From contig MFRW01000002.1 in NCBI GenBank assembly GCA_001786575.1, positions 1,717 through 65,716 on the forward strand: DNA of 64,000 bases, in the 5' to 3' direction. Positions 13,869 to 63,017 of the stretch are shown piece by piece. Under the pieces are notes generated by a model. The model was not told where the DNA came from and did no database searches. It saw nothing but the letters and a program-made list of their open reading frames with translations. Source of the stretch: Candidatus Moranbacteria bacterium RIFCSPHIGHO2_01_FULL_55_24. Its GTDB lineage: Bacteria > Patescibacteriota > Minisyncoccia > Moranbacterales > UBA1568. Each line of letters starts with the position of its first letter. Within the stretch, counting starts at the first letter, position 1. The translations under genes and the position numbers were made by a program.

Positions 13869-13871
13869 GCC

Positions 13872-28891: not shown

Positions 28892-30214
28892 TTGAAGCGG
28901 CGGAATACCAAAAAAATGAGGCAAATTTTCATACGTCTGGCGAAAAACTCCTTTATTCGGAACAGCTTCGTGCTCTTTGCGGGCACGATGATCGTGAACG
29001 TCTTGAACTACGTGTTTCACCTGGTGGTGGGTCGCATGGTAGAGCCGGCGGCGTACGGGGAAATCGAGTCGCTTATCTCGCTTCTGGCGATTATTTCCGT
29101 GCCGGCTGCTACGCTGACGCTCATCGCCACCAAATACGCGGCCAATATGAAGGCAGGCCAGGATACGCGCGGGGTGCGCATCCTCTCGCGTTACCTCAAC
29201 CGCAAGCTTTTCTTTTACGGATTGCCCCTGCTCGTGCTCGCGTTCTGCCTGACTCCTCTGGTGAAGCGCTTTCTCAATATCGGGAGCAATCTCCCGATCC
29301 TCTACCTGTGGGGAGTGATGGCGCTTTCTTTCCTAAGCGCGGTGACGGCCGGGATCCTCACGGGATGGCAGAAATTTTTCCATACCAATATCTCCGGAGT
29401 GCTTTCTACGATCCTGAAGCTCGGAGCTGCTTTCTTGTTCATCCGCTGGGGGTTCGGGGTGAGCGGAGTGATCGGAAGCTATGCTCTGGCGATACTTTTC
29501 GGATATCTCATCTCCCTCTTTTTTCTCCGGCGCTTCTTTTATCAAGACGCTTCTCCGGAGGATAAGTCCGTGGAACCGCACTTCCCTTCGCTCAAGGGGT
29601 ACGTACTCCCGGCTTTCTACGGGACGCTCGCTGTTGCGATTCTCGGAAATGCGGATATGATCTTCGCCAAGCATCACCTGGGGGCAGAGGCATCCGGAGA
29701 GTACGGAGCGCTCTTCATAGTAGCGAAAACGATCTTCTTCGTCACCGGCGTGCTGACCACGGTGCTTTTCGCGATGTCGGCGGAAGAGAGCGCGAGCGAA
29801 AAAAGAGCGACGTACACCTTCCGGATCGCGGCAGGACTCACCTGTCTTACGGCTCTCGTCTCGGTATTCTTTTTCTCGCTTTTTCCGGGCTTGGTGATGG
29901 GGGTATTCTTCGGAGAGAAGTATCTGGCTGTAAGCCATCTTCTGGGATGGTTCGCGCTCGCGGCCGGGACATACTCGATTGCCAACCTGTTTCTCCAGTA
30001 TCTCCTCTCGCTCCATAAGACTCGCATAGCCTCGCTCTTTTTGGCTCTTTCCGGCCTAGAAATAGCCGCTTTGTTTTTCTTCGGAGAGGGCTTGTATGCT
30101 ATAATCGGGATAACAATCGGGACACAGATGCTTGCCGCTCTCCTGGGCCTCTTTTTCGTGCTGAAGGAAAACCATCATGCCAAAGCTGATTTCTATCGTC
30201 ATCCCAGTCTATAA
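28892..30214 (+). CDS. wzx: Oligosaccharide flippase (Wzx/MOP superfamily polysaccharide biosynthesis protein)
   Basis: 440 aa with about 12 predicted TM helices. The N-terminal pattern is typical of RfbX/Wzx. It overlaps the downstream GT2 by 38 nt. Confidence 0.75.
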   Translation: MKRRNTKKMRQIFIRLAKNSFIRNSFVLFAGTMIVNVLNYVFHLVVGRMVEPAAYGEIESLISLLAIISVPAATLTLIATKYAANMKAGQDTRGVRILSRYLNRKLFFYGLPLLVLAFCLTPLVKRFLNIGSNLPILYLWGVMALSFLSAVTAGILTGWQKFFHTNISGVLSTILKLGAAFLFIRWGFGVSGVIGSYALAILFGYLISLFFLRRFFYQDASPEDKSVEPHFPSLKGYVLPAFYGTLAVAILGNADMIFAKHHLGAEASGEYGALFIVAKTIFFVTGVLTTVLFAMSAEESASEKRATYTFRIAAGLTCLTALVSVFFFSLFPGLVMGVFFGEKYLAVSHLLGWFALAAGTYSIANLFLQYLLSLHKTRIASLFLALSGLEIAALFFFGEGLYAIIGITIGTQMLAALLGLFFVLKENHHAKADFYRHPSL

Positions 30215-37233: not shown

Positions 37234-37244
37234 AATCTCACTCT

Positions 37245-46873: not shown

Positions 46874-46884
46874 TATAAATAAAC

Positions 46885-50138: not shown

Positions 50139-50927
50139 ATGAAAACGGTAATACTATGTGGAGGAAAGGGTACACGGTTACGGGAAGAGACTGAATTTAA
50201 ACCGAAACCGATGGTAGAGATCGGCGACCTTCCTATACTGGTACATATCATGCGGTTTTATGCCGAACAGGGGTTTAACGAATTCGTTTTGTGTCTTGGG
50301 TACAAAGGGGATGTCATCAAGGATTATTTCCTTAATCTGTCGAAATTCGTAAATGATTTCCATCTTGATCTGAAGACGAACAGTATCGAATATCTCAATA
50401 ATGGGCACAACTTTGATTTCAAGATCACTTTTGTTGAAACGGGCGAGGATACGCAGAGCGGAGAACGTGTCAAAATGGCATCGAAGTATATTCCGGAAGA
50501 AGAATTCATGGTGACGTATGGGGACGGTGTGAGTGATATCGATATACGGAAACTGATACAGTTCCACAAGAAGCAGAAGCAGAAGCACGGGACAGTCACT
50601 ACGCTTTCAGCTGTGCATCCATCTTCGAAATACGGAAAGATCTATGCTGACAAAAACAATGTGCTAGAGAAATTTGACGAAAAGCCGGTGCTTGCTGACT
50701 ATATCAATGGCGGTTTCATGGTCATGGAAAAAGCGGCGCTCAAGTATATCAAGGATGGGGATATGCTGGAGGATGGTCTGCAGAAAATGACGAAGAAGCA
50801 TAAGCTTTCACAGTACTGCCATAGCGGTTTCTGGCACAGTATGGATACGATGAAAGATGTCATGGACCTCAATAAGATGTGGGAAAGCGGAAAGCGCCCT
50901 TGGGCTCTTTGGGAAACTAAGCGGTAA
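50139..50927 (+). CDS. rfbF: Glucose-1-phosphate cytidylyltransferase
   Basis: MKTVILCGGKGTRLREETEFKPKPMVEIGDLPIL...GGFMVMEK is the canonical RfbF/DdhA sequence. Confidence 0.9.
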   Translation: MKTVILCGGKGTRLREETEFKPKPMVEIGDLPILVHIMRFYAEQGFNEFVLCLGYKGDVIKDYFLNLSKFVNDFHLDLKTNSIEYLNNGHNFDFKITFVETGEDTQSGERVKMASKYIPEEEFMVTYGDGVSDIDIRKLIQFHKKQKQKHGTVTTLSAVHPSSKYGKIYADKNNVLEKFDEKPVLADYINGGFMVMEKAALKYIKDGDMLEDGLQKMTKKHKLSQYCHSGFWHSMDTMKDVMDLNKMWESGKRPWALWETKR

Positions 50928-50958
50928 TCCATTTATTTTTTCTTCATTCTTGTCTTTT

Positions 50959-52038
50959 ATGCAGCGCTTCTTCAAAGGAAAAAAAATTCTTATCACGGGA
51001 AATACCGGTTTCAAGGGTTCTTGGCTTACGGAGATATTATTACAGTGGGGTGCTGACATTGTCGGCGTTTCGCTTCCGCCAAAAACAGAACCAAACCTTT
51101 TCGCTATCCTGAATTTGGAGCAGCGGATAAAAAACTATTTTCTCGATATAAGGGATTTCGATGCCTTGAAGAAGGTGATTGCCGACGAGCGTCCGGAAAT
51201 AGTCTTTCATCTTGCGGCGCAGCCGATCGTGCGGATAAGCTATGATGATCCTCTAACGACCTATTCAACCAATGCTCTCGGTACTGCAAATGTTTTGCAG
51301 GCGATCCATGAGGTTGGGTCCGTGAGGGCAGCGGTAATCATCACTACGGACAAGGTTTATAAGAATGTCGAGTGGATATACCCGTACCGTGAAAACGACC
51401 CCTTAGGGGGGTATGATCCTTACAGCGCCAGCAAGGCGGCTGCCGATATCATTGCGCAATCGTACATACAATCTTTTTTCAATCCGAAGGACTTTGGGAA
51501 AAAGCATCAGACGCTCGTAGCTATTGCGCGCGCCGGGAACGTGATCGGAGGAGGGGATTGGGGGGAGTATAGGCTGGTTCCTGACATTGTGAGGTCGATA
51601 TATGAAAAGAATGAGAAAGTAATTATCAGGAGTCCGCGAGCTATCCGTCCCTGGGAGCATGTTCTTGAGCCGCTTGCGGGATATCTCGAGCTCGCTTCCG
51701 GTCTGTATGCCGGGAAAATCGAATATTCGGATGCCTGGAATTTCGGGCCGGACCATGAAAGTTTCATGAATGTCGAAGAGCTCGTCAAGCGGGCCACGGC
51801 GCTTTTAGCGAAAGGCACATATGAGATCCGGGAAGATAATACGAAACATGAGGCCGGAATCCTGATGCTTGATACCACCAAGGCAAAATCTTTTTTGGAT
51901 TGGTCGCCAAGATTGAGGTTTCAAGAGAATATCGACTTCACATTCAGCTGGTATAGGAACTATTACGAAAAAGCAGCGGACCCTATCGAGTTCACAGACG
52001 CACAGATCAAGTCCTTCTTCAATGATGCAAGTTCCTAA
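50959..52038 (+). CDS. rfbG: CDP-glucose 4,6-dehydratase
   Basis: KKILITGNTGFKGSWL...YSASKAAAD...RAGNVIGGGDW is the canonical RfbG/DdhB sequence. The start is set at the ATG at 50959; the ORF-track 50857 is an extension. Confidence 0.9.
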   Translation: MQRFFKGKKILITGNTGFKGSWLTEILLQWGADIVGVSLPPKTEPNLFAILNLEQRIKNYFLDIRDFDALKKVIADERPEIVFHLAAQPIVRISYDDPLTTYSTNALGTANVLQAIHEVGSVRAAVIITTDKVYKNVEWIYPYRENDPLGGYDPYSASKAAADIIAQSYIQSFFNPKDFGKKHQTLVAIARAGNVIGGGDWGEYRLVPDIVRSIYEKNEKVIIRSPRAIRPWEHVLEPLAGYLELASGLYAGKIEYSDAWNFGPDHESFMNVEELVKRATALLAKGTYEIREDNTKHEAGILMLDTTKAKSFLDWSPRLRFQENIDFTFSWYRNYYEKAADPIEFTDAQIKSFFNDASS

Positions 52039-52136
52039 GATCGGTCGAAATCGCCTCGGCCAGCTGCTGATAAAATCCAGATTAGAGCAGCCGGAACTTC
52101 CAGGTCGGACCAGAGTAAGCAACTGAAAAAGAGATT

Positions 52137-53438
52137 ATGAAAAAAGAGCTAGAAGATATCATTCGGAAAGAATACCAAGAGAGATTTCCTAAAAAAGAAT
52201 TCATTCCAGGAGAGTCTGCTGTGCCTGTTTCTGGAAAAGTTTTTGATGAACAGGAAATGATTCTCATGACCGAGGCGGTACTGGAAGGCTGGTGGACCGA
52301 GGGGCATATGACGAATGAATTTGAGCAGAAGCTTGCCGAGTATATAGGGGTGAAATTCTGCTCGACTGTCAATTCCGGCTCTTCAGCGAATCTGACGGCT
52401 TTTACCGCGTTGACCTCGCATCTCTTGGGTGAGAGGCGTATCAAGCCAGGAGATGAGGTTATTACGGTAGCAGCCGGTTTTCCTACGACTATCAACCCTA
52501 TTATCCAGAACGGCTGTGTGCCGGTGTTTTTGGATGTGGAGCTCGAGACCCTCTCGATAGATGTGAGCCAGCTTGAACAGGCATTGAGCGAGAAAACAAA
52601 GGCGGTGATGATAGCGCACACGCTCGGTAACCCGTTCGACTTGGGAGCTATCAAAGATTTTTGTGAGAAGCATAAGCTTTGGTTTGTTGAGGATAATTGC
52701 GATGGATTGGGGAGTAGATACGACGGTAAGCGCACTGGCTCTTTCGGGCATATCTCTACGGTCAGCTTTTATCCAGCGCATCATATTACGACTGCTGAAG
52801 GTGGGGCGGTATTCACTGATAATGTCGTGTTGAATAAGATTATCCGATCGGTACGCGACTGGGGACGCGATTGCTGGTGTCCAACTGGCAAAGATAACAC
52901 CTGCGGCGTCAGATTTAACTGGCAACTTGGAAAATTGCCCAAAGGCTATGATCACAAATATACGTATTCGCACCTGGGATATAACCTCAAAATGACTGAA
53001 ATTCAGGCAGCTTGCGGTTTAGCACAGCTTGAGAAGCTGGAGGGATTTGTAGAGAAGCGGAAGAAGAACTACACTTTACTGCGCGAGAAGCTTGGAAAGT
53101 TTGAGAAGTTTCTTCTCTTTACAGATCCTATCGCTAAGGCTGACCCGAGCTGGTTCGGATTCCTCATTACCGTGAAGGATGGCGCTCCGTTTACTCGTGG
53201 GGAATTGCTTGAGTACTTGAATGGTCGAAAAATCGCTACTCGGCTCCTTTTTGCTGGTAATATTACTCGGCAGCCATATTTTACGAATTCTGGTATCCGA
53301 TATCGTCAGATAGGGGAATTGAAGAATTCTGACAAGGTGATGATGGATACCTTTTGGATAGGTCTGCACCCGGGTATTACGGGAGAGATGATCGACTGGG
53401 TAGCAGACTCTTTCGAAGATTACTTTGGGAAATTATGA
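52137..53438 (+). CDS. rfbH: CDP-6-deoxy-D-xylo-4-hexulose 3-dehydrase (E1, RfbH/DdhC)
   Basis: A DegT-family fold with His replacing the PLP lysine (SFYPAHHITTAEGG), which is the hallmark of PMP-dependent E1. Length is 433 aa. Confidence 0.85.
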   Translation: MKKELEDIIRKEYQERFPKKEFIPGESAVPVSGKVFDEQEMILMTEAVLEGWWTEGHMTNEFEQKLAEYIGVKFCSTVNSGSSANLTAFTALTSHLLGERRIKPGDEVITVAAGFPTTINPIIQNGCVPVFLDVELETLSIDVSQLEQALSEKTKAVMIAHTLGNPFDLGAIKDFCEKHKLWFVEDNCDGLGSRYDGKRTGSFGHISTVSFYPAHHITTAEGGAVFTDNVVLNKIIRSVRDWGRDCWCPTGKDNTCGVRFNWQLGKLPKGYDHKYTYSHLGYNLKMTEIQAACGLAQLEKLEGFVEKRKKNYTLLREKLGKFEKFLLFTDPIAKADPSWFGFLITVKDGAPFTRGELLEYLNGRKIATRLLFAGNITRQPYFTNSGIRYRQIGELKNSDKVMMDTFWIGLHPGITGEMIDWVADSFEDYFGKL

Positions 53439-54373
53439 TTAAGACTGTCCTCATAACCGGTATTGCTGGTTTCCTCGGCAGCCATTTGGCTGAAAGATTG
53501 ATTCATGACGGATATGCTGTGGTAGGACTGAAACTTGCGGATTCTGACCTCTGGAGGCTTGAACCTTTCGCAGAGAAGTTGAAACTCTATGATGCTGATT
53601 CCAGAGATTTTGAACGTATCTTTACCGAGAATAAGATAGATTGCATCATTCATCTGGCAACATACTACACAAAAGACCACCCTTCTCCTGACGAGATGAC
53701 GCAGATGATTGATGCGAACATCAAGTCTCCTACGGAGCTCTGCGAGCTTGCGGACAATTATAACGTCAGATATTTCATCAATACTGGTACATTTTTCGAA
53801 TATAAACTCGGAAGTCCTGATCTGATACAGGAAAATGATGAGAGAAGCGCATATAACTTCTACGCTGCCACGAAAATAGCCTTTTCGGAATTGCTTAGGT
53901 TTTTTACAGAGAAGAAAGATTTAACCGCTATCGATTTCAAGCTTTTTGCGCCGTTCGGAGAGAAGGATAATGAGAAGCTCATAGTATTCTTGGTAAAGTC
54001 ATTGCTTGACGGGTCTCATGTTGAATTTTCTGGAGGGGAGCAGGCTTGGAATTTCACGTATGTAGACGACATTATCGAGGCTTATGCATGCGCGCTTAAG
54101 AGAATGGATGGCCTTGCTGAAAAGTATACCGTGCTGAACGTCGGTTCCGGATCTACTGTGACTATTCGAGAGATTGTAGAAAAGTTGGAAAAGATATCCG
54201 GGAAAAAGCTTGATATCGAGTGGGGAGCCAAGACGTACAGAGAGAATGAAATTTTCCATGTGAATTGTGACAATTCCCGATTGAAAAAAGTCCTCGGGTG
54301 GGAACAGAAATTTGATGTAGACAGCGGATTGGAGAAAACATATCGTTATTATGCGACGGCAGCTAATCTATAG
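53435..54373 (+). CDS. NAD(P)-dependent CDP-3,6-dideoxyhexose synthase/4-reductase (RfbS/RfbJ/AscF-like SDR)
   Basis: VLITGIAGFLGSHLAERL (GxxGxxG) and YAATKIA (YxxxK). It overlaps rfbH by ATGA. Length is 312 aa. Confidence 0.7.
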   Translation: MIKTVLITGIAGFLGSHLAERLIHDGYAVVGLKLADSDLWRLEPFAEKLKLYDADSRDFERIFTENKIDCIIHLATYYTKDHPSPDEMTQMIDANIKSPTELCELADNYNVRYFINTGTFFEYKLGSPDLIQENDERSAYNFYAATKIAFSELLRFFTEKKDLTAIDFKLFAPFGEKDNEKLIVFLVKSLLDGSHVEFSGGEQAWNFTYVDDIIEAYACALKRMDGLAEKYTVLNVGSGSTVTIREIVEKLEKISGKKLDIEWGAKTYRENEIFHVNCDNSRLKKVLGWEQKFDVDSGLEKTYRYYATAANL

Positions 54374-54389
54374 GAATCAATAACATATT

Positions 54390-54878
54390 TTGAGTATGGA
54401 AGAAAAAATACCAGGAGTAACGGGTAAGATGATCGAAGGGGTAGTGATAAAGAGACTTGCGAAAATTCCAGATGAGCGTGGATGCGTTTCCCATATGCTG
54501 AAGAAAGAGGATGCACATTTCAATGGCTTTGGAGAGATCTATTTTTCTAGCGTCTATCCTGGAGCGATCAAGGCTTGGCATGTTCATAAGGAAATGGAGC
54601 TGAATTACGCTGTCATATCAGGAGACATCAAATTCGCGCTCTACGATGATCGCGAGGGATCTCCGACTCGTGGTAATCTTATGGAAATTTTCATGGGAGA
54701 AAAGAATTATATCTTAGTAAAGGTTCCGGTCATGGTGTGGAACGGCTTCAAAGGTATCGGCAGTAAAGAGGCTATCGTTGCCAATTGTACGACGTTATCC
54801 CATCGTCCCGATGAGATAGAGCGTTTAGATCCATTTTCGGATAAGATTCCGTACGACTGGGAATTAAAAAACGGGTAA
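54390..54878 (+). CDS. RmlC-like cupin sugar epimerase/isomerase (possibly CDP-3,6-dideoxyhexulose 5-epimerase AscE-like)
   Basis: 162 aa. DERG and KAWHVHK correspond to the catalytic His/Lys region of the RmlC/FdtA cupin families. Confidence 0.6.
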   Translation: MSMEEKIPGVTGKMIEGVVIKRLAKIPDERGCVSHMLKKEDAHFNGFGEIYFSSVYPGAIKAWHVHKEMELNYAVISGDIKFALYDDREGSPTRGNLMEIFMGEKNYILVKVPVMVWNGFKGIGSKEAIVANCTTLSHRPDEIERLDPFSDKIPYDWELKNG

Positions 54879-54890: not shown

Positions 54891-57800
54891 ATGCGGATAA
54901 GTTTGGTTATTCCGGCGTATAATCGGGAAGCGCTCATTCGGGAGGCTATCGAGAGCGCTCTGGAGCAAACTGAAAAGATAGACGAAATCATTATCATAGA
55001 TAATGATTCGCTCGATGCTACCTTTCGGATTGCAGAGGAGTATGTGGCGAAATATGATCATATCAAGGCCTTTAGGAATGAGAAGAACATTGGAATGATC
55101 AACAACTGGAACCGAGGGATCCAGAAGGCCACTGGAGACTACGTGAGCGTGCTGCATTCTGACGACATCATTCCCAAGAACTGGTGCGAGACCGTGAAGT
55201 CAGCCATTCGGAGGAATGAGGGGAAAGATGTTGCTCTCTTTTTTGGTATTTATGCTTGTTTCCAGCGGAAGCAAGGGAAGATAGAAGTTGTCTCAAGGAT
55301 TGAAAATTTTTCTAAAGATACTTTTTTCCCAGCCGAAGAATCAGTAAAGAGGCTCTGGGAGAATTTTTATGGGAATCCGAATTGTTCCGCGGCCATAGTT
55401 TATAAGAAGTCTCTTTTTGATGAAATTGGATATTTTAACCCGGACAAAGGCGTGGAGGCGGATCAGGATTTCCACATACGGGTTCTCAATAGGTATAATT
55501 CCTATTTCATCGACCAGGAACTTTTGTATTACAGGCGCCACGAATTTCAGGGATACGATTTCAAGCAAGAGACTGAATCGGCCGAGACGAGCCTAAAGCG
55601 TCTCCTGAATGCTGTCAGCATCCAGAAGGAGAATCTGAAAGATCCAGAGCTAGTCAAATATACCTATTGTGGCGTCCTGCTCTACGCTCTCAAATTCTTG
55701 TTAACGCTCCATTTCAGCCAGGCGCTCCGCTTGTTCAAAATACCAGGTATTTTCAATCGGAAGACGCTTACGAATTTCCCGAGATTTTTTTGGATGCTCG
55801 TTTCTCGAAAATATTTCAATAAATCTTTCATACTTAAATTTAGGAAAACCAGGATTTCTCTCCTTTTCTTTCTGTTTTCCTGTCTGGTTCTGCGATCTTT
55901 GATTTTTTCAAGCTACGAGGGTATTGGACATAATTGGGATTGGGGATTCCCAGCTATGCAGCCGATGTTTGAGAGGATTAACGAGCTTTCGGAGTACTCT
56001 TGGAATGGCTTTGGCTTAGGAAAAGAGCTCAATTTACAGGCTCATTTTGCGGTTAATGAGATCATCTCTTGGTCTGGGGCGATCTTAGGTACCAAATGGG
56101 CCGTAGTATTGCTTATTTTCAGTACGTTGACTATCTCCTTTTTTTCATTCAAGCCGTTACTTGATTTCCTAAGCGGACGGAAGTCCGATCTTCACTATTT
56201 ACCGAGCGTCCTCTACGCTTTCTCGCCGTTTCTTTTCAATGAGATTATCGGTGGGTCTTGGTATATGTGGGTTTCATATGCTTTTGCCCCGGTTCTTTTC
56301 TTGAATCTGATCCGATATGTGCATTTTAGAAGATTGAAACATCTCACGGGATATTTATTGGCCACGGTTTTCGTGTTGATATCTCTGCAGAACTTCGTAG
56401 TCATCGAATCGATTGCGGCGGTATTTCTTCTTTTTAATATGATCCTTAACAGGGATCATTTGGAGAATGTCAAGGGTTTGGTCGCAGGCTATCTTTGGGC
56501 GCATCTCATTTTGTTTCTCGCTAGTCTTTATTGGATAGTCCCTTTCATCTACTCTCTCAAGACATTCTATCTGATGGTTACAAGCGTTTCCTTTACGGGC
56601 GGCTTCGAAGGCATCCGTGATATTACCCAGGGCGTGCTCGAGATATTTTCTTTGGCAGGATATTTGGATAGGAATATGTATTATCATGCTATCCCTGATG
56701 GAGCCCTTCTCCTTTTCAACATTTCTGTGGCAGCGTTTTGGGTAATGCTTTCTGCGACTTTTTTTCTCAAGCGACAGGAGGAGAAACAAAAAAAGAACGT
56801 GTTGCTCTGGTTTTCCATACTGATACTCCTGATTCTCGTTATCAAAGGAGGAAATGCTCCCTTCGGAAGCCTCACAATGTTCATCTTCCAGCATTTCCCA
56901 TTGATGTCGCTATACAGAAGTCCGCAGCATCTGATGTTTGCGGCAGCCTTTCTTGTCCCGATACTCATGGCCTTGACAATCCATTCTTTTATCCGGAGCG
57001 GATTTTCAAAAAAAACGGTAATAGTTCTTTTTCTTCTGATTATCGGCTTTTGGACAAGCGCCTGGTGGCTGAATGGTGACCTGGGCCGTGAGATATTAAG
57101 TGCCAAGAAGAAGGACCATATAGATCTCTACACCATCGCTCCGACTCTGCGAAAGATTTATGAATACAATGAGAACAGTTTTTTGGCGCATCGTATCCTC
57201 TTCCTTCCTACAGCTTTCAGTCCTGATTACTTGCCGAATGAGTATCAAAGAAAAGCCCAAGGCGGCCAGCCGGAATATTCATATCTTAAGAACCCGACTT
57301 TTAGCGCAGAGTTCAATGCTCTCGCAGGCCTTATCGATGATAAGCTCTGCTATAACGAAGAATTCGACCTCCTGAAATACCTTTCGATTACCAACACCCG
57401 ATATGTTTCGCTCCGGGAAGATATCTATCCGCACCATTCTAAATGTGGAATTTTTAAGGTTTGGGATGCGGATCATACTCGTAAGCTCATTGAAAATACA
57501 GCTGGTTTAGCGCCTGTCAACGGATTAGAGGGATTGTACTTAGTAGGGGATGAATACTTCTTGCAGCGTTTCTTCGTTCCGAAAAAAGTCGTTGTATCGG
57601 ACCGTGAGGTTGAAAATATTCCCGATATCGTTTCTACGGACGACTACGAGGTTGGTACAGCGCTCTTCCTGAAGAGTCAGAATAAAGAAAGGACTGACGT
57701 GCTGGACACAGCTAGTATCGCGCGGATATCTGGCAGAGATAAGGATCCGACGTTGGAATTTAAGAAAATAAGTCCCGTGAAATACAGGATGAGGATTCAT

Positions 57801-58385
57801 GGCGCGAAGGGCGTGTTCCCGCTCGTTTTTAATGAGAGTTTCCATGAAGGATGGAAGCTGTATCCCGGAGAATCTGATAGTGTGCTGTTTTCAGCTTCTG
57901 CAGCGGGTAGGATCGGAAATTATCATGTTATTGACGGCAATGTCGAAAATCAGGCGAGTCAAGATGAATTAGAGCGATATATCCGAAGAGGATGGGTTAC
58001 TGGTTTTGGAGAAACAAATAATATCAGTTTCGTCTCTAAGGATTTTCGAGGCGCTATCCAAAATAATAATTTACCCGATGGGGATTTCTGGGAAAACTGG
58101 TTTCGGAAAGGATCTTTGAATGGCGTCTCTGGGCATCTGGTGGTGAACGGATATGCGAATGCTTGGATTATCGATCCGGAAGAAGCATGCTCTGCGAGGG
58201 CTGCTTTCTGCAAGAAGAATCAGGATGGCACATATGATTTTGAGATTGTGGCCGAATTTTGGCCCCAGAGGCTTATGTCTCTTGGCCTAGGACTCTCGGT
58301 TGCGGGATTGGCAGTATTTCTGGTATTTTTCGGTATTGTACGGATGGTAAAAGCAGCTCGGACTGGCAAGGGGGAAGCATTGTGA
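54891..58385 (+). CDS. Giant fusion protein: N-terminal GT2 domain plus a polytopic membrane domain plus a C-terminal extracytoplasmic domain
   Basis: The first ~270 aa are GT2 (SLVIPAYNRE...IIIDNDSLD...HSDD). They are followed by about 14 TM helices and a roughly 400-aa soluble C-terminus ending in a TM anchor. Length is 1164 aa. Confidence 0.7.
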   Translation: MRISLVIPAYNREALIREAIESALEQTEKIDEIIIIDNDSLDATFRIAEEYVAKYDHIKAFRNEKNIGMINNWNRGIQKATGDYVSVLHSDDIIPKNWCETVKSAIRRNEGKDVALFFGIYACFQRKQGKIEVVSRIENFSKDTFFPAEESVKRLWENFYGNPNCSAAIVYKKSLFDEIGYFNPDKGVEADQDFHIRVLNRYNSYFIDQELLYYRRHEFQGYDFKQETESAETSLKRLLNAVSIQKENLKDPELVKYTYCGVLLYALKFLLTLHFSQALRLFKIPGIFNRKTLTNFPRFFWMLVSRKYFNKSFILKFRKTRISLLFFLFSCLVLRSLIFSSYEGIGHNWDWGFPAMQPMFERINELSEYSWNGFGLGKELNLQAHFAVNEIISWSGAILGTKWAVVLLIFSTLTISFFSFKPLLDFLSGRKSDLHYLPSVLYAFSPFLFNEIIGGSWYMWVSYAFAPVLFLNLIRYVHFRRLKHLTGYLLATVFVLISLQNFVVIESIAAVFLLFNMILNRDHLENVKGLVAGYLWAHLILFLASLYWIVPFIYSLKTFYLMVTSVSFTGGFEGIRDITQGVLEIFSLAGYLDRNMYYHAIPDGALLLFNISVAAFWVMLSATFFLKRQEEKQKKNVLLWFSILILLILVIKGGNAPFGSLTMFIFQHFPLMSLYRSPQHLMFAAAFLVPILMALTIHSFIRSGFSKKTVIVLFLLIIGFWTSAWWLNGDLGREILSAKKKDHIDLYTIAPTLRKIYEYNENSFLAHRILFLPTAFSPDYLPNEYQRKAQGGQPEYSYLKNPTFSAEFNALAGLIDDKLCYNEEFDLLKYLSITNTRYVSLREDIYPHHSKCGIFKVWDADHTRKLIENTAGLAPVNGLEGLYLVGDEYFLQRFFVPKKVVVSDREVENIPDIVSTDDYEVGTALFLKSQNKERTDVLDTASIARISGRDKDPTLEFKKISPVKYRMRIHGAKGVFPLVFNESFHEGWKLYPGESDSVLFSASAAGRIGNYHVIDGNVENQASQDELERYIRRGWVTGFGETNNISFVSKDFRGAIQNNNLPDGDFWENWFRKGSLNGVSGHLVVNGYANAWIIDPEEACSARAAFCKKNQDGTYDFEIVAEFWPQRLMSLGLGLSVAGLAVFLVFFGIVRMVKAARTGKGEAL

Positions 58386-58462
58386 CAAGCCCTGAAAACT
58401 TTGTTAAGATGGCATAGGAAAGGTGAAACTTCGTTCTAAGTGATTTTCGAAAGCGATGCATA

Positions 58463-59449
58463 ATGTATAATGCTTTTTTTAAAAAAAACTACCAGTACAT
58501 ATTTATTTTTTTTGTTTTTCTATTGGTACTTTTTAACCATTATTTTATTATTCCCAGCGAGACAGAGGAGGTAAAGAGTGAGAAGGGGATTCCTTCTGAA
58601 ATTCCATTTTTGGATAATAAGGATACAGAAAAGGCGTACAAAAATATCTTGCAGTCAAAACAAGGGGATGTTTTTAGGGTAGGGTTCTTCGTAAAAGCCG
58701 ATCATGATCAGGTTCTCGAGGTGTTCTTGGAGTCTGCTCTCAATGAAAAGTTGAAGGTGGGTGAAATCGCAGTCAGTGATTCTGGCGAGTGGGAATATAA
58801 AGAGCTGGTTTTTGTCACTCCTGATCGCTATGATTCTCTTGCGATAAGCCTGAAGCAAGGAGAGTTGATTTCTAGAAAATGGGACAACAAAGTCGTATAT
58901 CTTGAGTCTTTCCTCATAACTCGGATAGATATTGATAAGTCACGGATCGCGACCCTTTCTCCGACCATATCTGATGTATCAGGCATAGAGCGTGCGAGGC
59001 TTGAGGATATCGGAGGAGCTTATCTCTATACCTACTCATACCAGAATAAAGAGATCGATTATCAGAATTTGTTTGACTCAAGCGGGACGGTCCATTTCGA
59101 TGATGACGATAGAATCGTTGTCGGGGAGGGTAAGAGGAGTGAGTTTTTTACATATAAATTTGATACGTTTTATCCCTTTGAGAAGTTTGTGTTTCAGGCA
59201 GTTCAAGATGGGAAATCATCAAAAGAACTTCATCTGGAGTATTCTTTCGATAATTCCTTTTGGAGGGAGATAAGCTATGCTCAAGAAAAGGGCGATCATC
59301 AAGAATTCTTCTTAACTATCCACGGCAACCAGAAAGAGAAGACGGTCTATATTCGGACGACTTATGACGGTGATGAGAAGAAAAAGAAAACTTTTGGTCT
59401 AGCTGAATTTTCGGTAATGGCGACTATTCAGAAAGCGCCTAAAAATTAG
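58463..59449 (+). CDS. Hypothetical signal-anchored protein
   Basis: An N-terminal TM/signal anchor, then a soluble domain with a Lys-rich tail. No family recognised. Confidence 0.4.
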   Translation: MYNAFFKKNYQYIFIFFVFLLVLFNHYFIIPSETEEVKSEKGIPSEIPFLDNKDTEKAYKNILQSKQGDVFRVGFFVKADHDQVLEVFLESALNEKLKVGEIAVSDSGEWEYKELVFVTPDRYDSLAISLKQGELISRKWDNKVVYLESFLITRIDIDKSRIATLSPTISDVSGIERARLEDIGGAYLYTYSYQNKEIDYQNLFDSSGTVHFDDDDRIVVGEGKRSEFFTYKFDTFYPFEKFVFQAVQDGKSSKELHLEYSFDNSFWREISYAQEKGDHQEFFLTIHGNQKEKTVYIRTTYDGDEKKKKTFGLAEFSVMATIQKAPKN

Positions 59450-61641
59450 TGAGCTTACTATCTATGGGATTGAAGGGCTTTTTGCAAGCGTGTAGATGGG
59501 AAATAGGAGGGCTTCTCTTGCTCCTGTTCTGCGTATGCATAAACCTTTTTCCGTCAGGCTACATCATCCTTGGCGGGGATGTGCTTCAAGCTCTCAACCT
59601 CTCGGAAAATTTCAAGTATTTCTATTACGAAGACTGGTTCCGTCAGTCTTTTCTCTTTTATGGGATTTTCTATTTTCTGGATATGCTCGGTGTGAGCGAT
59701 ACGGGACAATTGTCATGGTATTTGGGAATATTTTTAGTCGGATCATATCTTTCCTTTTTGGCCTTTTGTTCGCTCTTGTTTCCAAAATCACCGAAAGTGG
59801 CCAGAGTTTTAGGGGCGTTATTCTATGCCACAAATATCTATACGCTCTATATTTTTACTGCTACTTGGGGATACATCTCCTATCAGACGCTTTATATCTT
59901 TATTCCAGCGCTGGTCGGTTTATATATAAAGGTTCTCGAAACGAAACAGCCTCTTTTCGTAGTACTTTTCTTTTTGGCGGCATTTCTCGCTTCCATAGGC
60001 TTCAGTAATCCGGCATTTGCACTGGGTCTGGGAATATTTTTCTTCATCCTCACGCTACTGCTTTTTTTCACAGGATTCATATCATTTGACTGGCGAGCAG
60101 TCAGCAGGATAACACTCCTTATTTTAGGATCAGTATTGCTCAATGCCTATTGGATACTGCCAGTTATTCCGCAATTGCGAGGCGGTATAGAAGGCGTGTA
60201 TGCATCCGAATTTGTGGATTTGAAGGAGAGGCTTGAAAAGACCTCGAATGCCATATTCGATACTATCCGGCTCATGCCGACAAGTGAGCAAAATCGTTAT
60301 TATCCCTCTAATTTCCCTTACCCCAACATCTCTTGGATGGAAGATGGTATTTTGCTTCTCGCTTTCGTGCCGTTTTTCGTTGTTTTATTCGGGTTTATCT
60401 TGAGAAAGGAAAAGAGGGAATGGGTACTCTATACAATATTCTTGGCGCTCTTTACGGTCTTTGTCGCGCTGGTAGCGCGAATACGTTTTCCATTCGATGC
60501 TATGAACAGTTTCCTTTTCCAGCTTCCCGGATTCAATACACTAAGGGGGTACGATAAGCTTGCGACTTTTACCCCGTTTCTCTTAAGCGCACTTCTCTTT
60601 CTAGCTCTTCTTTCTCTGCAGGGAAAGAGATACTATCGGACTGCGATGATCGGATTTTTCGTTGTGATAGTGGTCTTAGCTTTGCCGTTTTATGTTGGCG
60701 GAATACAGACTAAGTTGAGTTATATCCTTTCTGGCCAGAAAGAGAAAGATTTTCGGACGGCGAAGCAGAGTGCTCTTGTGAAGGTGCCGGAAGCGTACTA
60801 TGACGTTAAGCCTCTTCTGCAGGAAGCTCGGGATGACAGCAAGATTGCCATGTTGCCATTCTCGCCAGGATCCAGCGTAGGAAGAGTGAATTTCCCAGCC
60901 TGGAAGGTGAATGGGCCCAATATTGTGAAGGATCTCTACGGAAAGAGGTTTATCGAACTTTATGAGTACTCTATACCTGGTTGGATGTTCGCTCAAGATT
61001 TTGAGAACACTCGTTACGATCCGGAATGGATAGTCGACCTGTATGGGCTTCTTGGAACGAAATATATCTTCTACCACAAAGATGCTAAGAAGAAGGCTCT
61101 TGAGGAAATGGAGGATTCTCGTAGATATTTGGAAAACGTCGGCGCTTTGCGGCTGGTGCGTGATACCGAATCTTTTTACCTCTACACTCTGGAAGAGAAC
61201 CGAGTTGTTCCTTATGTCTATACATCCCCGAGCGCCCTCGTTCTTGATCCGACCCCTGAAGGGCTTTCTCGAGCAGTCAGTGATTTTCGGAATCGAATCT
61301 CGTCCCCGGAATATCACCGCAAGAATCCGAAAGAGCTACAAGTGGAGATTCCGGATACCCTTGGAATCGGTTCGGAAATCTTTTTGAATGAAAAGTACGA
61401 TCCTCTCTGGGTCGCAGAATATGTCTCTCTGCAAGGGGAACACATCAGGATAGAAAGAGATACCTCGGTAAAGTATGCGAATGCATGGAAGACGGATCGG
61501 GTTGTGGCTGGTGAGGATATAGAAATTTATTATCTGCCGTTCAAATTTTTCCGTATCGGTCTAGTCTTATCAGGATTGACATTATTGGTTGTCGTTTTTG
61601 GCATGGTTTGGGTGCTTCGGAAAAAGGGTGATAATGTATAA
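59449..61641 (+). CDS. Large polytopic membrane protein with a C-terminal extracytoplasmic domain (GT-C-like or polymerase-like)
   Basis: 730 aa with about 12 TM helices in the N-terminal 420 aa, then a soluble domain and a final TM helix. The start overlaps the upstream stop. Confidence 0.5.
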   Translation: MSLLSMGLKGFLQACRWEIGGLLLLLFCVCINLFPSGYIILGGDVLQALNLSENFKYFYYEDWFRQSFLFYGIFYFLDMLGVSDTGQLSWYLGIFLVGSYLSFLAFCSLLFPKSPKVARVLGALFYATNIYTLYIFTATWGYISYQTLYIFIPALVGLYIKVLETKQPLFVVLFFLAAFLASIGFSNPAFALGLGIFFFILTLLLFFTGFISFDWRAVSRITLLILGSVLLNAYWILPVIPQLRGGIEGVYASEFVDLKERLEKTSNAIFDTIRLMPTSEQNRYYPSNFPYPNISWMEDGILLLAFVPFFVVLFGFILRKEKREWVLYTIFLALFTVFVALVARIRFPFDAMNSFLFQLPGFNTLRGYDKLATFTPFLLSALLFLALLSLQGKRYYRTAMIGFFVVIVVLALPFYVGGIQTKLSYILSGQKEKDFRTAKQSALVKVPEAYYDVKPLLQEARDDSKIAMLPFSPGSSVGRVNFPAWKVNGPNIVKDLYGKRFIELYEYSIPGWMFAQDFENTRYDPEWIVDLYGLLGTKYIFYHKDAKKKALEEMEDSRRYLENVGALRLVRDTESFYLYTLEENRVVPYVYTSPSALVLDPTPEGLSRAVSDFRNRISSPEYHRKNPKELQVEIPDTLGIGSEIFLNEKYDPLWVAEYVSLQGEHIRIERDTSVKYANAWKTDRVVAGEDIEIYYLPFKFFRIGLVLSGLTLLVVVFGMVWVLRKKGDNV

Positions 61642-61646
61642 AATAT

Positions 61647-61985
61647 ATGGCTATGAATGACGAAAAAAAGCTAGACATGAAAAAGCTTGTTTTAGAAAGA
61701 AAAGCGGATGTCATCTGTCTGTTGCTTGGAGTCGCTTTAGGCATATACTTTGACTGGAGTATCGTTGAGATTATCATTTTTCTTGTCTTTATCTGGTCGA
61801 TCCTCTGGTCGATCCCGAGCCGTTTTCTCGTCGGTCCAGCGATATTCTTTCTTGCTCTTACCCCGCTACTTCTCATGCTTGATCGGAAGGAACGCGCGGA
61901 AGAATTCGCTATCTACACTTACTATTTCCTCGCTATGGCGGTAATCCGGGGAATCATAGAGGTTCGGAAGGAAAAAACGGACTAG
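61647..61985 (+). CDS. Small membrane protein (GtrA-like size/topology)
   Basis: 112 aa with 3-4 TM helices. It is the last gene of the low-GC island. Confidence 0.35.
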   Translation: MAMNDEKKLDMKKLVLERKADVICLLLGVALGIYFDWSIVEIIIFLVFIWSILWSIPSRFLVGPAIFFLALTPLLLMLDRKERAEEFAIYTYYFLAMAVIRGIIEVRKEKTD

Positions 61986-62048: not shown

Positions 62049-62990
62049 ATGGAAAATAACTTCCCGTACCTGTCGGTGGTCGTTCCCTTGTATAACGAAG
62101 AAGGGAACGTAGCAGAACTGCACCAGAGAATCCTCCAAGCTGTCCAGAAGATCGGACGGCCTTTTGAAATTATCTTCGTGGATGACGGCTCGCGGGACAA
62201 GTCAGTAGAGATCGCCCGGACGCTTTCGCCTCTCAAGCTTATCGAATTCCGCAAGAACTTCGGCCAGACCGCCGCCTTCGATGCCGGGTTCAAGGCGGCC
62301 CGAGGCGAGATCGTCGTCACCTTGGATGGTGACCTGCAGAACGATCCGGAAGATATCCCGCTTCTCCTCGAGAAGCTCGGCGAGGGCTATGATGTCGTGT
62401 CCGGCTGGCGGTACAAGCGACAAGACCCTTGGAGCAAGAAGATTCCATCGCGGATCGCCAATCTGCTCCGGACAATCCTTATCCGTGACAACATCCATGA
62501 TTCCGGCTGCAGCTTGAAAGCGTATAAGAAGGAATGCTTCGAGAATCTCGATCTCTTCGGCGAAATGCACCGGTTCATTCCGGCTCTCCTCATGTTGGAC
62601 GGTTTCCGGGTAGGTGAAGTGAAAGTTTCGCATCATCCGCGGGTAAACGGAAAGACCAAGTACAACTGGAAGCGGGGCGTGAAGGGCTTCGTGGATATGA
62701 TCGCTATCTGGTTCTGGCGCAAGTATTCCTACCGGCCGATTCATCTTTTCGGCGGTTTCGGGGTGTTGCTCTCATTTTTGGGGAGCGCGATCCTTTTCTG
62801 GATGCTCGTGGAGAAATTCGTCTTCAATCATGCGATTGGCGAGCGCCTGTGGCCGCTGATTGGCATTTTTCTCGTCCTTATGGGCGTCCAGCTCTTCGTG
62901 GCCGGACTCCTGGCAGACATGCTGGTCCGCAACTATTACCAGGTGCGGAACCGCATGAACTACTCGATTCGCGCAGTGCGCGATCAGTAG
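62049..62990 (+). CDS. GT2 polyprenyl-phosphate sugar transferase (GtrB/DPM1-like)
   Basis: LSVVVPLYNEE...FVDDGSRD...DGDLQNDP (DxD) plus two C-terminal TM helices. It is a paralogue of the gene at 30177-31130. Confidence 0.85.
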   Translation: MENNFPYLSVVVPLYNEEGNVAELHQRILQAVQKIGRPFEIIFVDDGSRDKSVEIARTLSPLKLIEFRKNFGQTAAFDAGFKAARGEIVVTLDGDLQNDPEDIPLLLEKLGEGYDVVSGWRYKRQDPWSKKIPSRIANLLRTILIRDNIHDSGCSLKAYKKECFENLDLFGEMHRFIPALLMLDGFRVGEVKVSHHPRVNGKTKYNWKRGVKGFVDMIAIWFWRKYSYRPIHLFGGFGVLLSFLGSAILFWMLVEKFVFNHAIGERLWPLIGIFLVLMGVQLFVAGLLADMLVRNYYQVRNRMNYSIRAVRDQ

Positions 62991-63017
62991 GGAAAAGTAA
63001 CAATCAAAGAGCAGAAT

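What the first reader, a model, noticed from the sequence alone, without database searches (positions are those of the whole stretch)
54891..61641. Giant GT2-polytopic-membrane fusion (1164 aa) plus a second 730-aa polytopic protein: candidate synthase/polymerase-translocase pair replacing Wzy/Wzz
The 1164-aa protein starts with a classic GT2 catalytic domain, continues through about 14 TM helices and ends in a large extracytoplasmic domain. Two genes downstream is another protein with about 12 TM helices and an external domain. No Wzy polymerase, Wzz or ABC transporter is present in the island. The fusion resembles the architecture of synthase-dependent, processive polysaccharide systems, or of GT-C polymerases with a built-in GT-A. 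It may couple glycan elongation and export in a single polypeptide.
Basis: inference. Interest (0 to 1): 0.6.

Follow-up and report, generated by a model that had tools for sequence, protein, structure and literature searches.

The report
Two AftD-like GT-C glycosyltransferases, one GT2-fused
The two big membrane proteins are distant paralogues with the fold of lipid-sugar-dependent (GT-C, AftD-like) glycosyltransferases that work on the outer face of the membrane, one carrying an ordinary cytoplasmic GT2 enzyme at its N-terminus; they are not a cellulose-synthase-type synthase/exporter, and they belong to a large family that has no curated model.

Summary
The ORFs are real and lie exactly where stated. 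The window comes from a Candidatus Moranbacteria (CPR) genome. The 1164-aa protein is OGI22345.1, annotated 'hypothetical'.

Residues 1-312 are a non-processive GT2. It has the DNDS, SDD and E189-x-D191 motifs and no QxxRW. Residues 313-1164 and the 730-aa protein are remote paralogues (hhalign 100%, E 5e-39). Confident AlphaFold models of both match mycobacterial AftD best, then ALG12, ArnT and STT3.

Both proteins have 11 TM helices, an external alpha/beta plus beta-sandwich domain and one C-terminal TM helix. Both have an invariant Asp in the first external loop.

The GT2 and the GT-C are fused in four further protein clusters and are separate genes in other lineages, translationally coupled in two of them (one an archaeon). 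The GT2 co-occurs with the CDP-dideoxyhexose genes.

Downstream lie a 3-TM 112-aa protein and a GtrB/DPMS-type GT2 (DGDLQN).

The synthase reading is rejected and the GT-C reading is supported. No Wzy was found, but a Wzx flippase and a priming transferase are present. Whether these GT-Cs add single sugars or polymerise and ligate lipid-linked units is unresolved.

The family has at least 6,059 clusters at E<=1e-10 and no Pfam model.

The parts
54891..55826 (+). GT2 module of the 1164-aa protein (res 1-312): cytoplasmic GT-A catalytic domain (1-~225) plus four helices (231-308), two of them amphipathic or hydrophobic
   Evidence: PF00535 E 6.5e-31 and PF10111 res 4-216. PDB relatives 3bcv, K4CP and GalT1. 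Foldseek hits CgT, TarS, TarP, RmlT and WrtF. Motifs D36-N-D38-S, S90-D91-D92 and E189-A-D191; no QxxRW. The module aligns end to end with the separate 317-aa GT2 of L006.
55827..57071 (+). GT-C transmembrane core of the 1164-aa protein (res 313-727, about 11 TM helices). The GHNWDW motif (346-351) sits in the first external loop; KGGNxPF (652-657) and YRSPQH (675-680) sit in later external loops.
   Evidence: AlphaFold model. Foldseek to AftD 6w98, E 2.5e-8 over 669 columns. Conserved columns. Helix hydropathy.
57072..58259 (+). External alpha/beta plus beta-sandwich domain of the 1164-aa protein (res 728-1123)
   Evidence: Secondary structure of the model, pLDDT mostly above 90. Some homologues carry CBM_4_9 inserts here.
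58260..58385 (+). C-terminal re-entry TM helix (res 1124-1157) and a short basic cytoplasmic tail
   Evidence: The equivalent TM helix follows the YANAW motif in the 730-aa protein.
58463..59449 (+). 328-aa single-pass protein (TM 12-30) with an external domain; fast-evolving accessory of unknown role
   Evidence: No Pfam, NCBIfam or PDB hit. Found between the two GT-C genes in L002 and L004. Only 6 homologues.
59449..61641 (+). 730-aa AftD-like GT-C, a paralogue of the membrane part of the 1164-aa protein (likely start 59464). D44 and Q47 are invariant in the GGDVxQ motif after TM1.
   Evidence: hhalign A1 vs A2, 100%, E 5e-39, 599 columns. AlphaFold pLDDT 89.1, pTM 0.90. Foldseek AftD E 1e-8, then ALG12, ArnT, STT3, ALG9 and AftB. 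More than 95 homologues, named ones all Moranbacteria.
61647..61985 (+). 112-aa protein with 3 TM helices; always follows the 730-aa gene. Candidate GacJ/WpsB-like partner or small flippase.
   Evidence: No Pfam hit. Conserved in L002 and L004.
62049..62990 (+). 313-aa GtrB/ArnC/PgfS-type polyprenyl-phosphate glycosyltransferase (GT2 plus 2 C-terminal TM helices, motif DGDLQN)
   Evidence: NCBIfam ArnC 2.9e-53 and PgfS 1e-43 over the full length, both below their equivalog cut-offs. Sequence and TM helices. DxDLQ signature as in DPMS and GtrB (PMC5526996).
63018..64000 (+). 5' part of a UDP-glucose/GDP-mannose dehydrogenase gene that runs off the window
   Evidence: L001 is 99.8% identical to the window over 8,487 nt, and its next gene is a 435-aa UDPG_MGDP_dh protein.
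50139..54878 (+). CDP-3,6-dideoxyhexose genes: RfbF (cytidylyltransferase), RfbG (4,6-dehydratase), RfbH (3-dehydrase), an SDR reductase and an RmlC-like cupin. They lie directly upstream and co-vary with the GT2 module.
   Evidence: NCBIfam TIGR02623 (274 bits, below its 300-bit cut-off), TIGR02622 and PRK15407 (693 bits, above cut-off). Pfam. Co-occurrence in other loci.
47618..50116 (+). 832-aa PMT_2 (ArnT/PMT-like) GT-C, the third external glycosyltransferase. It lies within about 5 kb upstream of the AftD-like gene in the window and four other loci (immediately adjacent in L004 and L017).
   Evidence: PF13231 E 9.4e-10. Synteny in L002, L004, L006, L010 and L017.
28892..30214 (+). Wzx-type (Polysacc_synt) flippase of the island
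   Evidence: PF01943 E 8.8e-12; 10 TM helices.
26200..27624 (+). Priming polyprenyl-phosphate sugar-phosphate transferase (Bac_transf)
   Evidence: PF02397 E 6.5e-60.

Best explanation
The region encodes the outer-face part of a cell-surface glycan pathway in a Moranbacteria (CPR) cell.

Both large proteins are AftD-like GT-C glycosyltransferases. Each has an 11-helix membrane core that binds a polyprenyl-phosphate-linked donor. The active site lies at the external membrane surface and is built around an invariant Asp in the first external loop (D350 in GHNWDW; D44 in GGDVxQ). An external alpha/beta plus beta-sandwich domain would hold a polysaccharide acceptor, and one C-terminal helix returns the chain to the membrane.

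The 1164-aa protein also carries a conventional non-processive inverting GT2 on the cytoplasmic side. I infer that this module uses the CDP-3,6-dideoxyhexose made by the five genes just upstream. I further infer that it adds this sugar to a lipid-linked glycan intermediate on the inner face. After flipping (Wzx, 28892-30214), the fused GT-C module would handle that intermediate outside. The 730-aa paralogue would act on the same polymer. The GtrB-type 313-aa enzyme, with the 112-aa 3-TM protein, would supply or prime polyprenyl-monophosphate-linked sugar.

Shown: the folds, the paralogy, the topology, the motifs, the fusion and split-gene pattern, and the co-variation of the GT2 with the CDP-sugar genes. 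Inferred: donor and acceptor identities, and whether the GT-Cs transfer one sugar or whole lipid-linked units.
For: GT-C identity:
- The AlphaFold models are confident (pLDDT 89.1, pTM 0.90; pLDDT 87.1, pTM 0.78).
- Foldseek ranks AftD 6w98 first for the 730-aa protein (E 1e-8, TMq 0.51), followed by ALG12, ArnT, STT3, ALG9, AftB and Pmt4.
- AftD is the only non-GT2 hit near the top for the 1164-aa protein (E 2.5e-8, 669 columns).
- The 11-TM core, external domain and single re-entry TM helix match the published AftD layout (bioRxiv 10.1101/2019.12.22.885152).
- The Asp after TM1 is nearly invariant in A1 and invariant in the divergent set A4 for the first family, and invariant in the second family.
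- 15 homologues give weak hits to PF11847 GT-C_AftD, and 3 carry CBM_4_9.

Paralogy: hhalign 100%, E 5e-39.

GT2 type:
- Full-length matches are to PF10111, PglI and TIGR04283 (WcaA to res 178); the ArnC model scores 22 bits against 181 for the neighbouring 313-aa protein.
- E189-x-D191 lies at the usual catalytic-base position and is conserved in orthologues.
- The GT2 has no DxDLQ signature, whereas DPMS and GtrB have DADLQH/DADLQD (PMC5526996).

Coupling of GT2 and GT-C:
- They are fused in the window and in P0002-P0005.
- In L006 and in Methanocaldococcus L018 they are separate genes with a 4-nt overlap.
- In L017 they are adjacent.

CDP-sugar link: the orthologous GT2 and RfbH-pathway genes are present together in the window, L002, L006, L010 and L017, and are absent together in L004.

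The AftD-like gene persists in L004 without the GT2 or the CDP genes, so its own reaction does not need the dideoxyhexose.
Against: - No residue-level structural alignment, PAE or docking was available, so the active-site assignment rests on conservation and topology.
- GT2-plus-GT-C gene pairs described so far (csbB-yfhO, gtrB-gtrC, arnC-arnT) are donor-synthase/transferase pairs. By analogy this favours the rival reading, in which the fused GT2 makes the lipid-monophosphate donor.
- L006, L010 and L017 show no GtrB-type gene within 10 kb.
- I know of no mechanistic reason why an inner-face sugar addition should be fused to an outer-face enzyme.
- The E3 reductase of the dideoxyhexose pathway was not seen in the island, so the exact sugar is uncertain.
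Confidence: 0.45

Rival explanations
1. Fused GtrB-GtrC type system. The GT2 module transfers the CDP-derived dideoxyhexose onto undecaprenyl phosphate. The lipid-monophosphate sugar is flipped, and the fused GT-C module adds that single sugar as a side branch to a polymer outside. The 730-aa, 112-aa and 313-aa proteins form a second, ordinary three-component system.
For: - GT2/GT-C adjacency and fusion, including 4-nt overlaps in a bacterium and an archaeon.
- The GT2 co-varies with the CDP-sugar genes.
- Loci L006, L010 and L017 show no GtrB-type gene within 10 kb, so this GT2 is the only candidate donor synthase encoded there.
- The GT2 tail has amphipathic or hydrophobic helices like interface helices.
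- Other family members sit next to GtrB-like genes: L012, L014 and L018 (L011 and L015 show only weak N-terminal GT2 matches).
- Three-component systems are widespread (PMC8035078, PMC11127046).
Against: - The GT2 lacks the DxDLQ metal-binding signature shared by DPMS and GtrB, which the 313-aa neighbour has.
- It scores 22 bits on the ArnC model against 181 for the neighbour.
- Its best sequence and fold relatives act on sugar or polyol acceptors.
- It keeps an E-x-D at the usual catalytic-base position, which a phosphate acceptor does not need (PMC5526996).
- The AftD-like gene is retained in L004 without the GT2 and CDP genes.
- To my knowledge no CDP-sugar-dependent polyprenyl-phosphate glycosyltransferase has been described.
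Confidence: 0.3
2. GT-C polymerase plus ligase pair, a specific form of the reader's 'replacing Wzy'. As proposed for lactococcal WpsH/I and WpsJ, one AftD-like protein polymerises flipped lipid-linked repeat units and the other attaches the polymer to a wall glycan such as a rhamnan, or to a protein.
For: - No Wzy-like polytopic ORF or Pfam hit was found in the island, although Wzx and a priming transferase are present.
- Two paralogous GT-Cs occur in a fixed order with a small 3-TM protein and a GtrB-type GT2, resembling WpsA/WpsB, WpsG, WpsH/I and WpsJ (PMC10821137).
- dTDP-rhamnose genes lie in the same window.
- The 730-aa family is strongly conserved in sequence (mean column identity 51%) and in length.
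Against: - No test here separates a polymerase or ligase from a single-sugar transferase.
- AftD, the closest solved structure, transfers single sugars from a lipid monophosphate.
- The lactococcal polymerase and ligase roles are themselves a model, not demonstrated activities (PMC10821137).
- A Wzy could be encoded elsewhere in the genome.
Confidence: 0.2
3. BcsA/hyaluronan-synthase-like processive synthase that elongates and exports a polymer through its own membrane domain.
For: Only the gross architecture: a GT2 followed by many TM helices.
Against: - No Q/RxxRW motif in this protein or its four fused homologues.
- The GT2 is separable from the membrane domain: it is a free-standing gene in L006, L010, L017 and L018.
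- The membrane domain has a GT-C fold with its conserved residues in external loops.
- Most of the family lacks any GT2.
Confidence: 0.02

Closest known systems
Mycobacterial arabinofuranosyltransferase AftD (PDB 6w98; Pfam PF11847 GT-C_AftD)
   Same: It is the best structural match for both proteins. The layout is the same: an 11-TM GT-C core with juxtamembrane helices in the first external loop, then a large external domain with beta-sandwich modules, then re-entry through a single TM helix. An essential acidic residue follows TM1 (AftD K39/D41; here D350 and D44). Homologues give weak PF11847 hits.
   Different: Identity is only 11-13%, and the window proteins give no Pfam hit even at E<=10. 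There is no TM13-16 acyl-carrier-protein-binding bundle, and the external domain is far smaller (280-400 aa instead of about 60% of a 1,400-aa protein). The organism is not an actinobacterium, and no arabinofuranose donor pathway is evident. One copy is fused to a GT2.
Multi-component transmembrane glycosylation systems (GtrA/B/C; CsbB-GtcA-YfhO; GacI/J/K/L)
   Same: A GtrB/DPMS-type GT2 with the DxDLQ motif (313 aa), a small multi-TM protein (112 aa) and a large GT-C (730 aa) lie side by side. Gram-positive GT-Cs of these systems also hit AftD first in structure-based searches (PMC8035078).
   Different: The GT-Cs match neither the YfhO model nor any other Pfam model. The 112-aa protein matches neither GtrA nor any other model. 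The second GT-C carries a GT2 that is not of the GtrB type.
Lactococcal PSP pathway (WpsA/WpsB, WpsG, WpsH/I, WpsJ)
   Same: In the published model a glycan is built on undecaprenyl monophosphate by a GacI-like GT2 with a 3-TM partner, extended by cytoplasmic GTs, flipped by a Wzx-type protein, and then polymerised and anchored by GT-C enzymes without a Wzy (PMC10821137). The initiation and first elongation steps were shown experimentally; the polymerase and ligase roles are proposed. The window has the same cast of protein types, and rhamnose genes lie nearby.
   Different: No sequence comparison with the Wps proteins was made. The window also has a Bac_transf priming enzyme. The 313-aa GT2 has its own two TM helices, unlike WpsA and GacI.
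Non-processive GT2 enzymes (PglI, WcaA, TarS/TarP, RmlT, GalT1/CgT, WrtF)
   Same: These are the best sequence and fold relatives of residues 1-312. They share the DNDS, xDD and E-x-D motifs.
   Different: None of them is fused to a GT-C membrane enzyme. The donor inferred here is a CDP-dideoxyhexose.

Membership tests
GT-C superfamily | Polytopic core with a cytoplasmic N-terminus and 11-13 TM helices, followed by an external domain | tested here: met
   AlphaFold secondary structure and hydropathy give 11 TM helices plus an external domain in both proteins. The helix parity places the conserved loops outside.
GT-C superfamily | Conserved acidic residue in the first external loop | tested here: met
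   D350 (GHNWDW) is at least 90% conserved in A1 and invariant in the divergent set A4. D44 (GGDVxQ) is invariant in A2.
GT-C superfamily | Fold similarity to solved GT-C enzymes | tested here: met
   Foldseek hits AftD, ALG12, ArnT, STT3, ALG9, AftB and Pmt4 with probability 0.57-1.0. AftD E 2.5e-8 for the 1164-aa protein.
GT-C superfamily | Uses a polyprenyl-phosphate-linked sugar donor | not testable with these tools
   Supported only by context: a GtrB-type GT2 is adjacent, and similar genes lie near relatives.
AftD family (Pfam PF11847) | Match to the family model at its gathering score | tested here: not met
   The window proteins give no hit at E<=10. 10/48 and 5/45 homologues give weak hits (best 3.5e-4 and 7e-6).
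AftD family (Pfam PF11847) | C-terminal four-helix bundle (TM13-16) that binds acyl carrier protein | tested here: not met
   Only one TM helix follows the external domain.
Processive GT2 synthases (BcsA, HAS, PgaC) | Q(Q/R)xRW motif in the GT2 domain | tested here: not met
   No [QR]xxRW occurs anywhere in the protein or in P0002-P0005.
Processive GT2 synthases (BcsA, HAS, PgaC) | Membrane domain forms the polymer channel and is inseparable from the GT2 | tested here: not met
   The membrane domain has a GT-C fold. The GT2 is a separate gene in L006, L010, L017 and L018.
DPMS/GtrB/ArnC-type polyprenyl-phosphate GT2 (tested on the fused GT2) | DxDLQ metal-binding signature | tested here: not met
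   The fused GT2 reads HSDDIIPK. The 313-aa neighbour reads DGDLQN. The signature is described in PMC5526996.
DPMS/GtrB/ArnC-type polyprenyl-phosphate GT2 (tested on the fused GT2) | Full-length similarity to family models | tested here: not met
   ArnC model: 22 bits over res 2-96, against 181 bits over the full length for the 313-aa protein.
DPMS/GtrB/ArnC-type polyprenyl-phosphate GT2 (tested on the 313-aa protein) | DxDLQ signature, full-length model match and C-terminal TM hairpin | tested here: met
   DGDLQN at 93-98; TM helices at 236-254 and 270-288; ArnC 2.9e-53 and PgfS 1e-43 over the full length, both below the equivalog cut-offs.
Wzy O-antigen/EPS polymerases | Match to a Wzy/O-antigen-ligase-type model, or a separate Wzy-like polytopic ORF in the island | tested here: not met
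   No such Pfam hit on any island ORF scanned. The only polytopic ORFs are Wzx, PMT_2, the two AftD-like proteins and the 174-aa and 112-aa proteins.
YfhO family (PF09586) | Match to the family model | tested here: not met
   No hit for the window proteins at E<=10, nor for any member of A1, A2 or A4.
Three-component (GtrABC-like) glycosylation system | A dedicated small flippase (GtrA) or a Wzx | tested here: inconclusive
   The 112-aa 3-TM protein has no GtrA or other Pfam hit. A Wzx lies 30 kb upstream in the same island.

The most novel reading that the evidence does not exclude
The two AftD-like proteins are the polymerase and the ligase of a Wzy-independent, GT-C-based assembly line for a CPR cell-surface polysaccharide. 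The GT2 fusion physically couples the last inner-face glycosylation (a CDP-dideoxyhexose cap) to outer-face polymerisation, giving one polypeptide with two glycosyltransferase active sites on opposite sides of the membrane. The same uncurated family (at least 6,059 clusters at 50% identity) would then mark this pathway across many bacterial phyla and some archaea.
Probability: 0.15. Interest if true: 0.7.

Novelty: new variant of a known kind. Interest (0 to 1): 0.45.

Why it matters
CPR bacteria are uncultured episymbionts, and their surface glycans are essentially unknown.

This locus shows that a Moranbacteria genome invests in three outer-face GT-C enzymes. Two of them belong to a very large family with no Pfam or NCBIfam model (9,308 cluster representatives at E<=1e-3), which could be curated as a new GT-C family.

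I found no described precedent for a GT-A/GT-C fusion with active sites on opposite faces of the membrane, so it is a convenient handle for studying how inner-face and outer-face steps are coupled.

If the proteins turn out to be polymerase and ligase, they would extend the Wzy-free GT-C route proposed in lactococci to distant phyla.

Tried and rejected
- Sequence and profile searches of the membrane parts against PDB sequences found nothing.
- Pfam and NCBIfam gave nothing on the membrane parts of the window proteins, apart from one weak MmpA hit (2e-4, 20 bits against a cut-off of 210), which I dismissed as a hydrophobic match.
- The 863-aa form P0001, which looked like a natural split of the fusion, is a gene call cut at a contig end.
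- The 383-aa ORF with no Pfam hit (34601-35752) was considered as a hidden Wzy. It has no TM segment and no PDB relative.
- ORF 62772-63938(-) is a shadow ORF over two real genes.
- The 328-aa protein was considered as a Wzz-like chain-length regulator. It has one N-terminal TM helix only, only a weak sub-threshold F5/8-type-C hit (E 0.095), no PDB hit and few homologues, so no role could be assigned.

Full report
**1. Observation**

A 328-aa ORF lies between them.

The window comes from a Candidatus Moranbacteria (CPR/Patescibacteria) metagenome-assembled genome. The exact 1164-aa protein is NCBI OGI22345.1, 'hypothetical protein A2808_01115'. The 328-aa and 730-aa proteins are A2808_01120 and A2808_01125.

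The genes sit at the 3' end of a low-GC island. GC is 0.40-0.50 from about 32 to 62 kb, against 0.54-0.60 in the flanks.

**2. The GT2 module**

Residues 1-312 form a GT-A fold GT2.
- Pfam gives PF00535 (E 6.5e-31) and PF10111 over residues 4-216.
- The closest solved relatives are non-processive enzymes: 3bcv, the K4CP chondroitin polymerase domain, GalT1/CgT, TarS, TarP, RmlT, WrtF and a PglI homologue.
- The motifs are D36-N-D38-S, S90-D91-D92, and E189-A-D191 at the usual catalytic-base position, followed by YRRH. All are conserved in orthologues.
- There is no Q/RxxRW motif anywhere in this protein or in its four fused homologues. The processive-synthase reading therefore fails.
- The module also lacks the DxDLQ signature of the polyprenyl-phosphate GT2 class. 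That signature is 89-DADLQH-94 in DPMS and 94-DADLQD-99 in GtrB (PMC5526996). The neighbouring 313-aa protein has it as DGDLQN.
- On NCBIfam's ArnC model the fused GT2 scores 22 bits over residues 2-96. The 313-aa protein scores 181 bits over its full length.

**3. The membrane parts**

Pfam, NCBIfam and PDB sequence searches give nothing on residues 313-1164 or on the 730-aa protein.

Alignments of homologues (A1, 48 sequences; A2, 44 sequences) show that the two proteins are remote paralogues. hhalign gives probability 100%, E 5e-39 over 599 columns, running from the middle of the membrane core to the C-terminal TM helix.

AlphaFold models built on these alignments are confident:
- 730-aa protein: pLDDT 89.1, pTM 0.90.
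- 1164-aa protein: pLDDT 87.1, pTM 0.78.

Foldseek against the PDB gives these results:
- For the 730-aa protein, AftD (6w98) ranks first (E 1e-8, TMq 0.51). ALG12, ArnT, STT3, ALG9, AftB and Pmt4 follow.
- For the 1164-aa protein, AftD is the only non-GT2 structure near the top (E 2.5e-8, 669 columns).

Both models have 11 core TM helices, short helices in the first external loop, an external alpha/beta plus beta-sandwich domain, and one C-terminal TM helix. This is the published AftD plan without its TM13-16 acyl-carrier-protein-binding bundle and with fewer beta-sandwich modules (bioRxiv 10.1101/2019.12.22.885152).

The hallmark acidic residue after TM1 is present in both. D350 in GHNWDW stays invariant in a set of distant relatives. 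D44 in GGDVxQ is invariant in A2. Further conserved basic and polar residues lie in loops that the helix parity places outside: K652, R676 and H680 in the first protein, and R366 and K370 in the second.

Weak hits to Pfam GT-C_AftD appear in 10/48 and 5/45 homologues, and three homologues carry CBM_4_9 inserts.

AftD is also the usual top structural hit for Gram-positive GT-Cs such as YfhO and GacL (PMC8035078). 'AftD-like' therefore describes the fold and layout, not arabinosyltransferase activity.

**4. Family size and spread**

An exhaustive profile search with A1 used 786 positions; the GT2 columns dropped out. It found 9,308 cluster representatives at E<=1e-3, 6,059 at E<=1e-10 and 1,842 at E<=1e-30. 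This is a large family without a curated model.

Species-representative genomes place members in CPR lineages (including Saccharibacteria), in MAGs titled Flavobacteriales, Nitrospinales and Gammaproteobacteria, and in Methanocaldococcus indicus.

**5. Fusion and context**

| Locus | GT2 relative to the AftD-like gene | CDP-sugar genes |
|---|---|---|
| Window, L002, P0002-P0005 | fused | present (window, L002) |
| L006 | separate 317-aa gene, 4-nt overlap, aligns end to end with residues 1-312 | present |
| L017 | immediately downstream, before RfbH | RfbH present |
| L010 | upstream of the PMT_2 gene | present |
| L018 (M. indicus) | a GT2 of another subtype, 4-nt overlap | not seen |
| L004 | absent | absent |

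In L004 the order PMT_2, AftD-like A, single-pass protein, AftD-like B, 112-aa protein is nevertheless kept. The GT2 is therefore tied to the dideoxyhexose supply, and the GT-C reaction itself is not.

A PMT_2-type GT-C lies within about 5 kb upstream of the AftD-like gene in the window and four other loci (L002, L004, L006, L017), and about 5 kb upstream across the opposite-strand CDP genes in L010. L017 is syntenic with window 40-58 kb.

Downstream of the 730-aa gene lie the 112-aa 3-TM protein, the GtrB-type 313-aa GT2 and a UDP-sugar dehydrogenase.

The island also encodes:
- a Bac_transf priming enzyme and a Wzx flippase;
- several GT2 and GT4 enzymes;
- sugar C- and SAM-methyltransferases and a B12-radical-SAM enzyme.

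No Wzy, Wzz or ABC transporter was found. dTDP-rhamnose, peptidoglycan and MurJ genes lie upstream.

**6. Mechanism**

Well supported:
- Both large proteins are outer-face GT-C glycosyltransferases that should draw on polyprenyl-phosphate-linked donors and act on a glycan acceptor.
- The 1164-aa protein has a second, cytoplasmic active site.

Less certain is what the GT2 does. I favour a sugar-acceptor role: it would add the CDP-derived dideoxyhexose to a lipid-linked intermediate that the GT-C side later handles. The reasons are these:
- It lacks the DxDLQ signature.
- It keeps an E-x-D at the catalytic-base position.
- Its relatives act on sugar or polyol acceptors.
- The GT-C gene persists without it in L004.

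The main rival is a fused GtrB-GtrC pair that makes and uses Und-P-dideoxyhexose. It is favoured by analogy with known GT2/GT-C gene pairs, and by the absence of any GtrB-type gene within 10 kb in L006, L010 and L017.

A further open question is whether the two GT-Cs add single sugars or act as polymerase and ligase. GT-C enzymes have been proposed for those two roles in the lactococcal Wps pathway, in a model based on bioinformatics and gene inactivation (PMC10821137). The missing Wzy and the nearby rhamnose genes keep this reading alive, but nothing here tests it.

**7. Verdict**

The finding is a new variant of a known kind. It is an uncurated AftD-like GT-C family, here as a paralogous pair, with one copy fused to a conventional GT2.

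Interest is moderate, about 0.45.

Noticed in passing
window 32000-62000: Low-GC island (0.40-0.50) inside flanks of 0.54-0.60. It holds nearly all the glycan genes, and GC returns to 0.55 at the GtrB-type gene.
   Followed up: partly
window 50139-54878: The CDP-dideoxyhexose set has RfbF, RfbG, RfbH, an SDR and an RmlC-like cupin (an ascarylose-like layout). No E3 (AscD/RfbI-type) reductase was seen in the island, and L006 lacks RfbG as well.
   Followed up: no
window 37173-38951 and 40651-41901, 46082-47610: A B12-binding radical-SAM enzyme, a TylC3-like sugar C-methyltransferase and two SAM methyltransferases point to methylated sugars in the glycan. Radical-SAM enzymes recur next to family members in L005 and L008.
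   Followed up: no
window 558-15527: The upstream region holds a PBP2-type transpeptidase, a Mur ligase, the dTDP-rhamnose genes RmlC/B/D/A, a GT4, a DUF4012 protein and MurJ. This is a cell-wall neighbourhood that could supply a rhamnan-type acceptor.
   Followed up: no
L018 9983-13809 (Methanocaldococcus indicus NZ_CP186926.1): An archaeon carries a 301-aa GT2 overlapping by 4 nt a 974-aa member of the same GT-C family. A GtrB-like gene lies on the opposite strand just downstream, and a Wzx-like gene is nearby.
   Followed up: partly
L007, L010, L017: MAG records titled Bdellovibrionales, Pseudomonadales and Gammaproteobacteria hold loci related to the Moranbacteria island (L007 fully syntenic, L017 syntenic with window 40-58 kb, L010 sharing the module genes) at 33-55% identity, with GC 0.37-0.39 in L010 and L017. 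Either the titles are unreliable or the island has moved between phyla.
   Followed up: no
window 62772-63938 (-): This 388-aa ORF has no Pfam hit and no TM segment, and it overlaps the GtrB-type and dehydrogenase genes on the opposite strand. It is most likely a shadow ORF.
   Followed up: partly
L001 7505-12872 (continues the window 3' end): A 99.8% identical strain shows that the island continues past the window with a UDP-sugar dehydrogenase, an Exo_endo_phos protein, a GT4, an LPG_synthase_TM protein and a fourth GT-C (PMT/PMT_2, 782+ aa).
   Followed up: no
L009 6601-12406: Two AftD-like family members occur in tandem in one MAG. In L005, L012 and L014 the family member is followed by a polytopic protein of about 520 aa (Pfam DUF2079 in L005; L012/L014 not scanned).
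   Followed up: no
window 39067-39591: A 174-aa ORF with 4 predicted TM helices and no Pfam hit sits inside the island, between the radical-SAM and GDP-mannose dehydratase genes.
   Followed up: no
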